Assembly: GCA_951406725.2 (NCBI GenBank)
Contig: OX597819.1
Location: 32,550,001 to 32,614,000, forward strand
Source: Octopus vulgaris
Taxonomy: Eukaryota
Direction of reading: 5' to 3'
DNA length: 64,000 nt
Position numbers and translations under genes: made by a program. A model generated the notes under the pieces. The model was not told the origin of the DNA, did not search any database, and saw only the letters and a program-made list of their open reading frames with translations. Numbering within the stretch: the stretch's first letter is position 1; every line of letters starts with the position of its first letter. Below, one piece after another: positions 11,761-63,159 of the stretch.

Positions 11761-11960
11761 CATACCCCCTTACCCACAGTTTACACAGGCAGAGTAGAAT
11801 AGTTAGTGGGCTGTTATATAGATAGATAGATGTATGTTTGTGTGTATGCACATGTATGTAAGCATAAGGATATGAAAATAAACAGATCAACATACAGACG
11901 GATAGGTACATTGGTTATAAGATCAGACAAGCACACATACACAAATGGAAACTGAAACAC

Positions 11961-13190
11961 ATGACCATCCTTAAGAAAAGTATGATGCTCCACCTCCTAA
12001 ACACAGCCTCTATCTCTGATTCCCAACACGGCTTCGTGCCGAAGAGATCATGCTTGACCAACTTACTAGTAATGGAAGAATTGGTGACGCGCATCCTCGA
12101 TGATAGTGATGCTGTTGACATCGTTTTACTGGACTTTGCCAAAGCTTTTGACTCGGTAAACCACCGCCTATTACTTGTCAAGCTTCAAGCATATAGTTTC
12201 CATCCAGATATTGTACGATGGGTTGGTGCCTTCCTCTCAGATCGCTCCTTCCAAGTCCAAGTTAATGGTTCGCGGTCCGACGTCTCCAGTGCGAGCAGTG
12301 GCGTGCCTCAAGGTTCAGTGCTTGGGCCCTTGTTGTTCTTAGTCTTCATAAATGACTTGCCCGACAACCTCACGCAACACACCCTTCTATTTGCCGACGA
12401 TATCAAACTGGTCGCTCCTCGCGGCAATATAGAGGATCTTCGTCGATGCCTCCACCAAATTTGGAAGTGGTCTAACGATTGGGACCTGTGTCTGAACGTG
12501 TCAAAGTGCTGTCATCTGCCTGTCGGCTCTACTCCTGCAACTCAACTTGATTTCGAGCCGGGTAGTCTGCTGCTGGAGAGGACCGATCAGGTAAAGGACC
12601 TAGGTATCTTGGTGGATTCCTCCTTTTCGCCTTCGGCCCAGTGCGTCCATGCTGCCAACAAAGCACGCGGAATTCTGTTCTTGATTCGACGGTCATTCGG
12701 AATGCTCACAGCAGCCATATTCCTACCACTCTATGTCACGCTGGTGAGACCCATATTGGAGTATGGGATTCAAGCCTCTTCTCCTTATCTCCTCAAAGAC
12801 ATACAGCATCTCGAAAGAGTCCAGAAGCTGGCTACCCGCATGGTTCATGGTCTCAAAAATTTGTCCTACGAAGAAAGGCTGAGGACGCTCGACCTTTATT
12901 CTCTTGAAAAACGCCGCCGCCGTGGTGATCTCATTCTCGCCCACAACATCATAAGCGGAAAGTGTAACCTCTCGAAAGAGCTGTTCTTCACTCTTGCTCC
13001 AGAGCGTCGGCTGCGGGGTCATTCCGAAAAGCTCTACCTGCGACGATTTCATCTCAATCGAAGGAGAGGAGCTTTCTCCGTCCGGGTTGCGGATCCGTGG
13101 AACAAGCTGCCAGACGAGATGGTGAAGATGCCGACGACCGCTTTGTTCAAAGCCTCCCTTGACCTCAAGTGGCTTGAACTCTTTACATGA
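11961..13190 (+). CDS. Reverse transcriptase (ORF2 C-terminal part) of a 5'-truncated CR1-group LINE
   Basis: 409-aa open frame with QHGF, LDFAKAFDSV, SGVPQGSVLGPLLF, FADDIK and the CR1-type tail LERVQ..ATR..L.YEERL..L.L.SLE.RR.RGDLI ... RV...WN.LP. Confidence 0.9.
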   Translation: MTILKKSMMLHLLNTASISDSQHGFVPKRSCLTNLLVMEELVTRILDDSDAVDIVLLDFAKAFDSVNHRLLLVKLQAYSFHPDIVRWVGAFLSDRSFQVQVNGSRSDVSSASSGVPQGSVLGPLLFLVFINDLPDNLTQHTLLFADDIKLVAPRGNIEDLRRCLHQIWKWSNDWDLCLNVSKCCHLPVGSTPATQLDFEPGSLLLERTDQVKDLGILVDSSFSPSAQCVHAANKARGILFLIRRSFGMLTAAIFLPLYVTLVRPILEYGIQASSPYLLKDIQHLERVQKLATRMVHGLKNLSYEERLRTLDLYSLEKRRRRGDLILAHNIISGKCNLSKELFFTLAPERRLRGHSEKLYLRRFHLNRRRGAFSVRVADPWNKLPDEMVKMPTTALFKASLDLKWLELFT

Positions 13191-16821: not shown

Positions 16822-16869
16822 GTCATGCTGAAGAGTCCAGAAAGACAACGAAATAGTACTATCTACGGC
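16822..16869 (+). ncRNA. Candidate type I hammerhead motif in a (TA)n-adjacent island
   Basis: GTCATG-CTGAAGA-GT...AC-GAAA-TAGTACTA (palindrome)-TC-TACGGC. Stem I pairs 5/6 with G-U. Confidence 0.45.
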
Positions 16870-38567: not shown

Positions 38568-38629
<62 letters not shown>

Positions 38630-38639
38630 TATATAGAAG

Positions 38640-38692
38640 GAGCTTCTACAGGACTAGTACTGTTTCATTCAAGAGAAATCTTCAGGAAGCTC
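38640..38692 (-). ncRNA. Compact type I hammerhead ribozyme motif
   Basis: Minus strand GAGCTTC-CTGAAGA-TTTC TCTT GAAT-GAAA-CAGTACTAGTCCTG-TA-GAAGCTC: perfect 7-bp stem I, intact core, GUA site. Confidence 0.8.
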
Positions 38693-38712
38693 ATATATAT
38701 ATATATGAGACC

Positions 38713-38753
<41 letters not shown>

Positions 38754-38971
38754 GCATATATATATATGTATATATATATGTATGTATATATATATATGTA
38801 TGCATATATGTAATTATGCATGTATGTAGGCATGTATATATATATTTATACAAACGTAAGCATGTATATGTGTGTATTTGTATGTATGTATGTATGTATA
38901 TGTGAGTGTAACTGCATGTGTATAAATGTGTATGTGTAAAATGATGCAAAGACAAATTATAGAGAGGCAGG

Positions 38972-43210: not shown

Positions 43211-43650
43211 CTATCTAGTTCATTGATTAATCAATTAAGTAAACGATTGCTTGATTAAGTTTTCAATTAATCAGTCAATTAGTTTGCTTGTTAGAGTTTT
43301 TCTCCCATCAATAAGGACATTATCAATGACTTTGCCCCAAACAACAGTTTCGAGATAGGACAGCAAACCGTAAGCAATGAAAGTACGTCATCGATAAACT
43401 TATGAATGATCTCATAGACAATCTGATTTATTGATTGACGAAACAATTAAATCAGCGATTATTCTTTTATTCTTTTATTTGTTTCAGTCATTTGAATTCG
43501 GCTATGCTGGAGCACCGGCTTTACTCGAAAAAATCGCCCCAGGTCTTATTCTTTGTAAGCCTAGTTCCTATTCTATCGCTTTCTGTATTGAACCGCTTAG
43601 TTACGGGACGTAAATACTCCAACATCGGTTGTCAAGCGATGGTGGTACAG

Positions 43651-45300
43651 TAGTTCAAGGACGATGGGTCAGTGCCGCAGGACTTCAAGGATGCCAACAT
43701 CGTGCATCTGTACAAGAACAAGGGGGACAGAGTTTCATGTGTCAACCACAGTGGCATCTCATTGCTGAGCATCGCAGGAAAGATCATGGCCTGTGCCTTT
43801 CTGAACCATATCACACACCACCTGCTGGACGACGTGTTCTCAGAGAGCCAGTGTGGATTTGGAACAACAGGGGGACAACAGACATGGTCTTTGCAGTACG
43901 GCAGATACAAGAGAAGTGCCGAGAATAAAACCAGAACCTCTATATCCTCCTCATGGTCCTGACAAAAGCTTTTGGCACTGTCAGCTGAGAGGGCGCGTGG
44001 GATATCTTGTCCAATCTAGGCTGCCCACCAAAGCTCGTCAGGATCATCCAGTCATGTCATGATGGCATGATAGCTCGCATCATTGAAAATAGAGATGTCT
44101 CTGATCCATTCCCGATCTCCAATGGCGTGAATCAAAACTGCGTGATGGTTCCGACACTCTTCAGCCTCATCTTTGCCACCATGCTCTTCCGCACCCTGTC
44201 AAAGTCTGATGCTGGTGTCAATATTCGCTACAGATGTGAACCCGATTCTTTGACATCAGAGTCTGAAGATAAAAACCAAAGTCCTGGACGCCCTTGTGAG
44301 AGACTTCCTGTTGCAGACGATGGTGCGCTTGCAGCATTGAATGAACCAGACCTACAAGAACTTTCCACTTTTCTCGTAGAAGCAGCAAAATCCTTCGGAC
44401 TGACCATTAGCCTGCGAAAAACTGAAGTGATGCTTTAGCCTGCACCTAGTCTGACACCTCCTGGGGCTCAGATTGAGACTGAGGGCACAACTCTGAGCAA
44501 CGTCGAGAGCTTTACATACCTGGGAAGCTGCCTGTCCTCAAACTGCAGCATGGACAAAGATGTCTCCATGAGGCTTGCAAGAGCAGAAGCTCCGTTTGGC
44601 AGACTTTGGACACGTGAGCCGAACGAGGCATCATACTTTCCACCAAGCTGGCAGTCTATGGAGCAGTCGTCAGCACCTCTCTGCTCTACGGCTGTGGGAC
44701 GTGGACACTGTATAGGAGGCAAATGCGAGTACTTAACCAGTTCCACCTCCGCTGCTTCCGTCGAATCATGGGAATTTCCTGGGAGGACAATGTCTCCAAT
44801 ACTGAGGTGCTTCGCAGAGCCGAAATGCCCGGGATCGAAGCTCTCATCATGAAGGCCTAGCTCCAGTGGGCCGGACATGTAGTCCGAATGGACGATGCGC
44901 GTCTACCAAAGATGATCTTCTTCTTTGAGCTGGTTTGTGGAGCAAGAAACCCTGGAAGGCCACTGAGGCGAAAGAAGGACAGCCTGAAAACTTCCCTTGA
45001 AGCCTGCGGCATTTCAGCCCGTGGTTGGGAATCACTTGCCTCTGACCGCGGCGCCTGGCGTCCAGCTGTCCAAAAGGGTGTTAGGCTGTTCGAGGAAAAG
45101 CGCCTCAAGAGCCTGGACCAGAAGCGACAAGCCCGAAAAGAGAGGATCACCAACCCGACTGCTGCTGTTACGTGCCCAACATGTGGCCGCGTCTGCGCGT
45201 CCGCCTTTGGGTTCCGCTCTCACCTCCGGCGTTACTGACGTTATTGTTGAACCCCGAGAGACTTCCATTATGTATGTATGCATGATGTATGTATGTATAT
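43651..45300 (+). pseudogene. 5'-truncated decayed RTE-clade LINE (RT plus C-terminal zinc finger)
   Basis: Frameshifted fragments PQDFKDANIVHLYKNKGDR...GISLLSIAGK, SESQCGF, DMVFAVRQIQEKCRE, GVNQ, ADD, KTEVM, and CPTCGRVCASAFGFRSH. (TATG)n-like tail at 45268-45300. Confidence 0.9.
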
Positions 45301-46596: not shown

Positions 46597-46797
46597 TCAA
46601 CGTGTGTATCGTTGGTGATTTTCTTTCTCCGTCTTCCCTTCCTTGGACTTCTCCTTTTTTTCTATATTTCTGACGAGGAGCTCCGCTCGAAACGTTAAAT
46701 CCTCCTTCTTTCTTTCCTTTCCTGAGCGTCCAATAACACTATACGTATTCCACGTCCTCACTTTGTTGTGTTTTCTCTTTTTTTATGCTTGAATTAA
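46597..46797 (+). mobile_element. (TA)n-embedded repeat family P2 with minimal hammerhead motif
   Basis: ATTT-CTGACGA-GGAGC TCC GCTC-GAAAC-GTT-AAAT at 46666-46700. Homologous to 18396-18602. Confidence 0.7.
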
Positions 46798-56757: not shown

Positions 56758-56816
56758 ATAACTGAAGAGATGGCGGCGTGGATTTCCACTTCGGCATCCG
56801 AAACTCGGAGTTTTAT
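56758..56816 (+). ncRNA. Type I hammerhead ribozyme motif (stem II off by 1 nt)
   Basis: ATAA-CTGAAGA-GATG...CATCC-GAAA-CTCGGAG-TT-TTAT, in island 56690-56930 flanked by (TA)n. Confidence 0.6.
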
Positions 56817-62911: not shown

Positions 62912-63159
62912 GACTACCACCACCAGCTCAAAATTACTGGACTACCACCGCCAGCTTAAAATTACTGACTACCAGCACCAGCTCAAAATTACTGGACTAC
63001 CACCGCCAGCTCAAAATTACTGACTACCAGCACCAGCTCAAAATTACTGGACTACCACCGCCAGCTCAAAATTACTGACTACCAGCACCAGCTCGAAATT
63101 ATTGGACTACCACCGCCAGCTCAAAATTACTGACTACCCGCACCAGCTCAAAATTATTG
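62912..63159. repeat. Minisatellite of 9 units alternating 28/27 bp (55-bp higher-order repeat)
   Basis: GACTACCA(C/G)CACCAGCTCAAAATTACTG alternating with GACTACCACCGCCAGCTCAAAATTACT. Confidence 0.95.

What the first reader, a model, noticed from the sequence alone, without database searches (positions are those of the whole stretch)
38636..38692. A 57-bp island that is almost nothing but an intact hammerhead, stranded in (TA)n
Seen: between two TA tracts the only non-repetitive sequence is a minus-strand hammerhead with perfect 7-bp stem I (GAGCTTC/GAAGCTC), CUGAAGA, GAAA, stem III CAG/CUG enclosing a loop with palindromic ACUAGU, and a GUA site. The island boundaries nearly coincide with the ribozyme boundaries. 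Inference: it is either the smallest mobile unit of a retrozyme family or a retained RNA-processing element in an intron or UTR.
Basis: partly seen in the sequence, partly recalled or inferred. Interest (0 to 1): 0.75.

Follow-up and report, generated by a model that had tools for sequence, protein, structure and literature searches.

The report
Ribozyme stub of Hydra-clade retrotransposon
This tiny island is one of about 8,000 genomic copies of the ribozyme-bearing end of a known kind of jumping gene that inserts into TA repeats; its front edge carries an extra G that likely records the copying enzyme running off the capped start of the element's RNA, a testable clue to how these elements copy themselves.

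Summary
The hammerhead motif is real (minus strand, predicted cut 38647/38646), but it is neither a retrozyme unit nor a host element. It is a 68-nt dead-end copy (38624-38691) of the pLTR of a Hydra-clade Penelope-like retrotransposon: 7,909 exact 28-mer copies; the 4.8-kb parent has a 713-aa RT + GIY-YIG ORF with the Hydra motifs. A 7-bp piece of the opposite arm lies at 38709-38715. The 'perfect 7-bp stem I' is 6 bp in the parent; the seventh G was added at insertion. That edge looks like a transcription start: a TATA-like box at -29 in 48 of 51 intact copies, and a single non-templated G in 53 of 94 TA-joined copies versus 0 of 38 at neighbouring positions. Likely reading: cDNA ran off the capped RNA 5' end, without ribozyme cleavage. 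A second family did not reproduce the G excess (3 of 73). Cleavage and start site are untested. The scan reported Hydra stubs before in this genome and the cap reading in two other genomes.

The parts
38624..38691 (-). Tail-less (short-end) copy of the pLTR of a Hydra-clade Penelope-like element: +1 (A of AGCTTCC) to +68
   Evidence: Identical to the same stretch of long copies L113, L115-L120; short end TATATAATAAAT|AT is the commonest tail-less end (27 of 100)
38641..38691 (-). Type I hammerhead: stem I 38691-38686/38646-38641, CUGAAGA 38685-38679, stem II 38677-38668, GAA 38666-38664, stem III 38663-38648 with palindromic loop 38659-38652, A17 at 38647
   Evidence: Sequence, descriptor, fold; cleavage not tested
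38692..38692 (-). Non-templated G before +1, inferred to be the reverse-transcribed cap; makes the apparent 7th pair of stem I
   Evidence: Parent has T or C here; G in 53 of 94 TA-joined copies versus 0 of 38 at +5..+7
38632..38650 (-). Predicted competing hairpin UGUAGAAG-CUC-CUUCUAUA that covers the cut site and the 3' strand of stem I
   Evidence: Pair probability 0.88 in the island with 20/12-nt flanks; 0.23-0.99 in native contexts with 5 or more downstream bases
38693..38708 (.). 16-nt junction filler, (AT)7 + GA, palindromic with the adjoining CTC
   Evidence: Sequence; the G-(AT)n junction type is covered by contigs of runs X15 and X16 to about 38706-38709
38709..38715 (+). GACCTAC: last 7 nt of the element's long end (tail), the aborted opposite arm of a head-to-head insertion
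   Evidence: Matches the end GGGACCTAC|(AT)n of tailed copies; the 7-mer occurs 4 times in both strands of the window; 5 of 30 AT-G copies show such an arm, all with the short end
38569..38623 (.). Left (TA)n target tract
   Evidence: TRF
38716..38809 (.). Right (TA)n-rich target tract
   Evidence: TRF

Best explanation
The island is a 68-nt end fragment of a Hydra-clade Penelope-like retrotransposon sitting in a (TA)n tract, likely made when the element's reverse transcriptase copied only the first 68 nt of its capped RNA and ran off the 5' end. Shown: parent element (4.8-kb unit, 713-aa RT + GIY-YIG ORF), two fixed 3' ends 69 nt apart, head-to-head pairs with one short and one long end, 5' ends piling up at +1 with one extra G. 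Inferred steps: (1) a TATA box in the upstream pLTR starts Pol II at the first base of the hammerhead; (2) the endonuclease nicks both strands of (TA)n; (3) RT primes at the short end (+68) on one strand and the long end (+137) on the other; (4) using the copy of these sites next to the cap, the short-end cDNA reaches +1 and adds C opposite the cap, while here the long-end cDNA stopped after 7 nt; (5) end joining through AT filler seals the insertion. The ribozyme was not cut in the template and is predicted to be held off by a competing hairpin. The stub lacks TATA box, tail and ORF and is likely a dead end.
For: 7,909 exact copies of a 28-mer, control 0. Parent L094/L114: HHR-tail-ORF-3'UTR-HHR-tail-(AT)n, unit 4,784 bp. 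ORF motifs RWR, DKT, YRDD, CxCX5C, CxxC, CxH, one Cys only inside the GIY-YIG core; model pLDDT 89.8, best PDB fold hit TERT, E 4e-9; relatives carry GIY-YIG and RVT_1. Census of the first 100 hits on C1: 45 short ends, 51 long ends, 66 with 5' ends inside or at the base of the ribozyme, 22 exactly at +1; 21 of 22 close head-to-head pairs are short+long. TATAAA/CATAAA at -29 in 48 of 51 intact upstream regions, pyrimidine at -1, while 12 of the 21 bases between box and +1 differ between two subfamilies. Base before +1 in 94 TA-joined loci: G 53, T 18, C 15, A 8, GG 0; control G 0 of 38, Fisher p 3e-11. Two copies begin G-AGCTTCC and run on into the ORF leader (2 of 8 seen, chosen through G-containing queries). 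Untemplated G from the cap is described for L1/SVA (PMC3287187 passages); start site inside the pLTR and internal two-site RT priming on uncleaved RNA are described for other PLEs.
Against: No raw RNA reads, so start site, cap and strand are unobserved. A second Hydra-like family has a 5' pile-up near an initiator-like CCATTCT (29 of 90 copies) but G in only 3 of 73 TA-joined loci, 58 joining directly through AT (first 100 of 150 rows), and no TATA box shared by its subfamilies. +1 begins with the self-complementary AGCT, which alone could make a joining hotspot (557 AAGCTTCC matches; family 2 peaks at a CTAG palindrome). Most of the 513 G-class matches are CAGG|AGCTTCC junctions that have other explanations (about half of 30 inspected). 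The TATA sample was filtered for native upstream sequence and the copies are related. The queried Pfam copy finds no RT or GIY-YIG in the ORF itself.
Confidence: 0.62

Rival explanations
1. Same parent element, but the +1 edge is a structure and microhomology hotspot, not a start site: RT stalls at the base of stem I, the cDNA end folds back on its own stem-I copy, gains a templated C and joins through AGCT or the TA target.
For: The cDNA end GAAGCT can pair with its own AGCTTC and the next template base is G (sequence). AGCT palindrome junctions are frequent; family 2 peaks at CTAG and shows little G. Self-priming was proposed for PLE palindromes (PMC3846280 passages).
Against: Fold-back continues on a second G, yet GG is 0 of 53 and the longer product AAGGAGCTTCCTGA was in none of the fetched loci. 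It does not explain the box at -29.
Confidence: 0.27
2. The island is a self-propagating non-autonomous mini-element (minimal retrozyme) that is transcribed, cut and circularised by its hammerhead, and mobilised by the PLE enzymes.
For: 42 copies share the same 5' edge; subfamily changes fall only in N7, loop II and loop III; helix III can form a stable dimer duplex (-15.2 versus -1.4 kcal/mol); animal retrozymes derive from pLTRs (bioRxiv 10.64898/2026.07.22.740005).
Against: 30 of the 42 inspected fall into 6 parental variants with long or short ends, so they arose repeatedly; no tandem array at this locus; 5' ends at the cut site in at most 1 of 30 tail-anchored loci; the loop-only variation belongs to the parent lineages; the stub has no promoter box or tail.
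Confidence: 0.07
3. The island is a host RNA-processing element kept by selection in an intron or UTR.
For: The catalytic core is intact and the added G strengthens stem I.
Against: Identical to 47 of 167 sampled copies, so intactness reflects youth; with its flanks stem I has probability 0.11-0.31; no host exon was identified in the window (ORF list only).
Confidence: 0.04

Closest known systems
Hydra clade of C-terminal EN+ Penelope-like elements (Craig et al. 2021, PMC8557442; read: passages, section 11, supplement parts 1-2 and search hits)
   Same: RT + C-terminal GIY-YIG, RWK-type, DKT, CxCX5C, CxxC/CxH motifs, no CCHH pair, (TA)n target, type I hammerhead with the CUGAnGA-U...U-GAAAC layout of File S2, tandem and inverted copies with an optional tail
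   Different: A different family from Hydra-1_Obim (N-terminus and hammerhead differ, compared by eye); 4.8-kb unit with a 2.5-kb microsatellite-rich 3' UTR versus <3 kb; tail 69 nt versus 30-40; loop III 8 nt versus 1-3 nt in the listed Hydra motifs
[quoted passage not shown]
   Same: Type I motif in the pLTR, palindromic loop III, thousands of solo copies from truncated elements
   Different: Longer helix III, weak 3-bp helix II without the G10.1-C11.1 pair, competing hairpin over the cut site; their circular-template model is not supported by the 5' ends seen here
PAc (Poseidon, Anolis) in vitro system (Frangieh et al. 2024, PMC11167929; read: parts 1-2 of 4)
   Same: Two internal RT start sites that define the tail, both target strands nicked and extended, uncleaved RNA as substrate
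   Different: Other clade; starts lie inside the ORF there and 46 nt or more upstream of the ATG here; no cap run-off reported in the parts read
Untemplated 5' G of full-length L1/SVA insertions (PMC3287187; read: passages)
   Same: Single extra G at the 5' junction attributed to copying of the m7G cap
   Different: There it marks full-length copies primed at a 3' poly(A); here mostly 70-140-nt copies primed near the 5' end
Non-LTR retrozymes of animals (bioRxiv 10.64898/2026.07.22.740005; read: part 1 of 5)
   Same: Type I hammerhead, pLTR ancestry, no ORF in the unit
   Different: Retrozymes are tandem arrays with a hammerhead per unit; this is a solo, head-to-head stub

Membership tests
Type I hammerhead ribozyme | Core CUGAnGA, GAAA, UH with three helices | tested here: met
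   helix II is weak (pair probability about 0.1)
Type I hammerhead ribozyme | Variation confined to free positions or compensatory | tested here: inconclusive
   Recurrent changes only at N7, loop II, loop III in 24 tail-anchored and 167 total copies; stems invariant, so no compensatory pair
Type I hammerhead ribozyme | Self-cleavage after UH | not testable with these tools
   Needs an assay; competing hairpin predicted
EN+ Penelope-like element (parent) | Single ORF with telomerase-like RT and C-terminal GIY-YIG | tested here: met
   713 aa, YRDD, VY..YIG; top fold hit TERT; relatives hit PF01541 and PF00078; the ORF itself hits neither in Pfam
EN+ Penelope-like element (parent) | Partial tandem pLTRs, inverted truncated copy, optional tail | tested here: met
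   L114 tandem; inverted pairs; two ends 69 nt apart
Hydra clade | RWK and DKT motifs | tested here: met
   RWR at 38-40 (K in 36 of 45 aligned), DKT at 116-118
Hydra clade | CxCX5C linker; CCHH absent; CxxC and CxH around E and N | tested here: met
   C567-C569-C575; C667-C670; E672, N685; C695-H697; one Cys (590) within the GIY-YIG core
Hydra clade | (TA)n insertion and canonical hammerhead | tested here: met
   layout compared by eye with File S2
Hydra clade | Placement in the Hydra RT clade of a tree | not tested
   Reference sequences were seen only as supplement text; no tree built
Non-LTR retrozyme | Tandem units each with a hammerhead | tested here: not met
   One hammerhead at this locus; sampled copies solo, head-to-head or within PLE tandems
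Non-LTR retrozyme | Abundant circular RNA | not testable with these tools
   Only contigs available

The most novel reading that the evidence does not exclude
Hydra-clade Penelope elements start their mRNA at the first base of the hammerhead, prime reverse transcription next to the cap and make a retrovirus-like strong-stop cDNA. Thousands of stubs and head-to-head palindromes are such cDNAs integrated as they are, and a jump of that cDNA from the cap to the downstream pLTR copy would be how tandem pLTRs are regenerated. The ribozyme is kept off by a hairpin over its cut site while the RNA is a template.
Probability: 0.3. Interest if true: 0.7.

Novelty: new member of a known kind. Interest (0 to 1): 0.38.

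Why it matters
The island itself is one of thousands of ordinary stubs. Its value is as a record of mechanism: Penelope transposition is poorly understood (pLTR regeneration has 'no obvious mechanism', PMC2377424 passage), and the copies give a base-exact prediction of the RNA start, two RT start sites 69 nt apart, and an intact young ORF for in vitro work. It also warns that hammerheads found in such stubs can look better than the natural ribozyme, because the junction G adds a base pair.

Tried and rejected
Rfam gave no hammerhead match. Pfam on the parent ORF gave only an irrelevant weak hit. Expression: no RNA holder listed; contigs of three guessed-RNA runs cover the pLTR but cannot show start, strand or level. 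No contig of 4 runs spans the locus-specific junction to GACCTAC, so presence or absence in other individuals stays open. Run-off at the ribozyme cut site as source of the G: rejected, no such junction in the fetched loci and at most 1 of 30 tail-anchored 5' ends near the cut. The DNA search with the tail returned only 36 matches because common words are skipped, so it is a sample, not a count. One search had a faulty pattern and gave nothing; repeated. The C class at -1 was not counted genome-wide. The 5'-end census uses ungapped extension, so a few indels read as ends. Literature searches for the cap/TATA reading in PLEs found no paper stating it; PMC3846280 notes a putative TATA and Inr in a rotifer pLTR. 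Subscription papers and preprint supplements were not seen and may bear on this.

Full report
Observation. Window 38692-38636 read on the minus strand gives GAGCUUC CUGAAGA U UUC UCUU GAA U GAA ACAG UACUAGUC CUGU A GAAGCUC CUUC: a type I hammerhead with the cut predicted between 38647 and 38646. A descriptor requiring core and three helices finds 3 hits in the window and 0 in 100 block shuffles. Folding energy is unremarkable (z -1.12) and Rfam has no hammerhead hit. The host is a 2.8-Gb microsatellite-rich eukaryote genome; the species was not determined.

Copy number and parent. A 28-mer from the core has 7,909 exact matches, reversed control 0. Copies continue 3' with TATATAATAAAT and, in about half, a further 69-nt tail ending GGGACCTAC before (AT)n. 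One copy runs from the tail into an ORF (L013/L031). A search with that RT piece gave 150 scored matches of 8,104 candidates. L094/L114 is a partial tandem: 3' UTR, hammerhead, tail, 46 nt, a 713-aa ORF, a 2.5-kb microsatellite-rich 3' UTR, second hammerhead, tail, (AT)n; unit 4,784 bp. The ORF has 1,117 relatives at E<=0.001 among 7,992 candidates, some with GIY-YIG or RVT_1 hits, though it hits neither itself. Its model (pLDDT 89.8) matches TERT best (E 4e-9). It carries the motif set that Craig et al. give for the Hydra clade: RWR, DKT, CxCX5C, no CCHH pair, CxxC and CxH around E and N, with (TA)n targets. The U..U-flanked stem II matches the Hydra hammerheads of their File S2. It differs from Hydra-1_Obim by eye. 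No tree was built.

True anatomy of the locus. The copy spans 38691 (+1) to 38624 (+68, the short end). After one G and 16 nt of filler, GACCTAC at 38709-38715 (+) is the last 7 nt of the long end in opposite orientation. This is the usual head-to-head insertion with one arm almost absent: 21 of 22 close pairs in the census have one short and one long end, and 5 of 30 copies with the island's 5' edge show an opposite arm, all with a short end. In the first 100 hits on C1, 45 have the short end, 51 the long end and 4 neither; 66 have 5' ends inside or at the base of the ribozyme and 22 exactly at +1 (ungapped extension). Short-read contigs show the same ends and the G-(AT)n junction type, so these are not only assembly features.

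The seventh base pair is made at insertion. Long copies read TAGCTTCC or CAGCTTCC. For one loop variant the genome has 2,009 T, 557 A and 513 G matches at that place; the A class is mostly perfect palindromic joins at AGCT, and about half of 30 G-class loci inspected are the same join short of one A. Where (AT)n joins within 2 nt of +1, the base before +1 is G in 53, T in 18, C in 15 and A in 8 of 94 loci, and never GG (96 rows, 2 duplicates, counted by hand). At +5..+7 G occurs in 0 of 38 loci (43 rows, 5 duplicates); Fisher p 3e-11. Neither parent nor target supplies that G. The 42 ATAT-G copies are of repeated origin: the 30 inspected fall into 6 parental variants, 15 long-ended and 15 short-ended.

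Why +1 looks like a start site. In 48 of 51 intact upstream regions TATAAA or CATAAA begins at -29, one at -30, two have 11-nt deletions; -1 is a pyrimidine and +1 an A; 12 of the 21 bases between differ between two subfamilies without an indel (sample filtered for native upstream sequence). Of 8 distinct copies that run into the ORF leader, 2 begin at G-AGCTTCC (found through G-containing queries, so not a frequency). An untemplated 5' G from the cap is described for L1 and SVA (PMC3287187 passages). PLE start sites lie in the pLTR (PMC8557442, PMC2377424 passages), and a Poseidon RT primes at two internal sites on uncleaved RNA after nicking both strands (PMC11167929). Together this suggests cDNA primed at +68 or +137 near the cap that ran off at +1. 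These steps are inferred.

Against. A second, younger Hydra-like family (4,223 matches, 727-aa ORFs) has 29 of 90 5' ends within 7 nt around an initiator-like CCATTCT and few just beyond, but its peak is a CTAG palindrome and G precedes the presumed +1 in only 3 of 73 loci, with 58 joined directly through AT (first 100 of 150 rows, counted by hand). AT microhomology with the target may hide the G, but this is not a replication. Fold-back of the cDNA on its own stem-I copy also gives a first C; it predicts GG, seen 0 times in 53.

The ribozyme. Recurrent differences between subfamilies lie only at N7, loop II and loop III, in 24 tail-anchored copies with a full ungapped motif (of 30 loci) and in 167 copies overall, most of the latter selected on the 3' half of the core. 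This fits selection in the parent lineages; there are no compensatory changes. Alone, the 57 nt form stems I and III. With the next five bases a hairpin UGUAGAAG/CUUCUAUA covers the cut site (probability 0.88 in the island, 0.23-0.99 in native contexts). Helix III forms a much more stable duplex between two molecules, as for dimeric PLE hammerheads (PMC4209133). At most 1 of 30 tail-anchored copies starts near the cut site versus 8 exactly at +1 (10 with two indel cases read), so templates were mostly uncut.

Verdict. A young dead-end stub of a new family of a known clade. Earlier notes of this scan reached the Hydra reading in this genome and the cap reading in two other genomes (seen after my note); they are not independent proof. 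Six literature searches found no paper stating the cap run-off for PLEs. Interest 0.38.

Noticed in passing
window 46666-46705 (+): A second, unrelated minimal hammerhead (CUGACGA, stem II GAGC/GCUC, GAAACGUU with palindromic AACGUU) in a stretch between TA tracts; likely the stub of another Penelope family.
   Followed up: no
window 56758-56812 (+): A third hammerhead (CUGAAGA, long stem II, GAAACUCGGAGUU) in a 240-bp island flanked by (TA)n on both sides.
   Followed up: no
window 16828-16862 (+): Hammerhead-like core with palindromic helix III (GAAAUAGUACUAUC) about 240 bp after a TA tract; failed the descriptor's stem tests.
   Followed up: no
L221-L226 (e.g. G000:C1:64216500-64225000): A very young second Hydra-like family: many identical 727-aa ORFs, about 3.36-kb unit, 4,223 exact 28-mer matches, same short-end/long-end architecture.
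   Followed up: partly
L114:3900-6370: The parent's 2.5-kb 3' UTR is largely (TA/TG)n microsatellite and contains pieces that look like other repeats, so each long insertion spreads new microsatellite and possible new target sites.
   Followed up: no
window 11868-13190 (+) and 43614-45238 (+): Fragments of other non-LTR retrotransposon ORFs (a 440-aa RT frame with FADD; an RTE-like C-terminus), family labels recalled, not tested.
   Followed up: no
window 62912-63156: Tandem array of a 55-bp unit, 4.5 copies, 96% matches.
   Followed up: no
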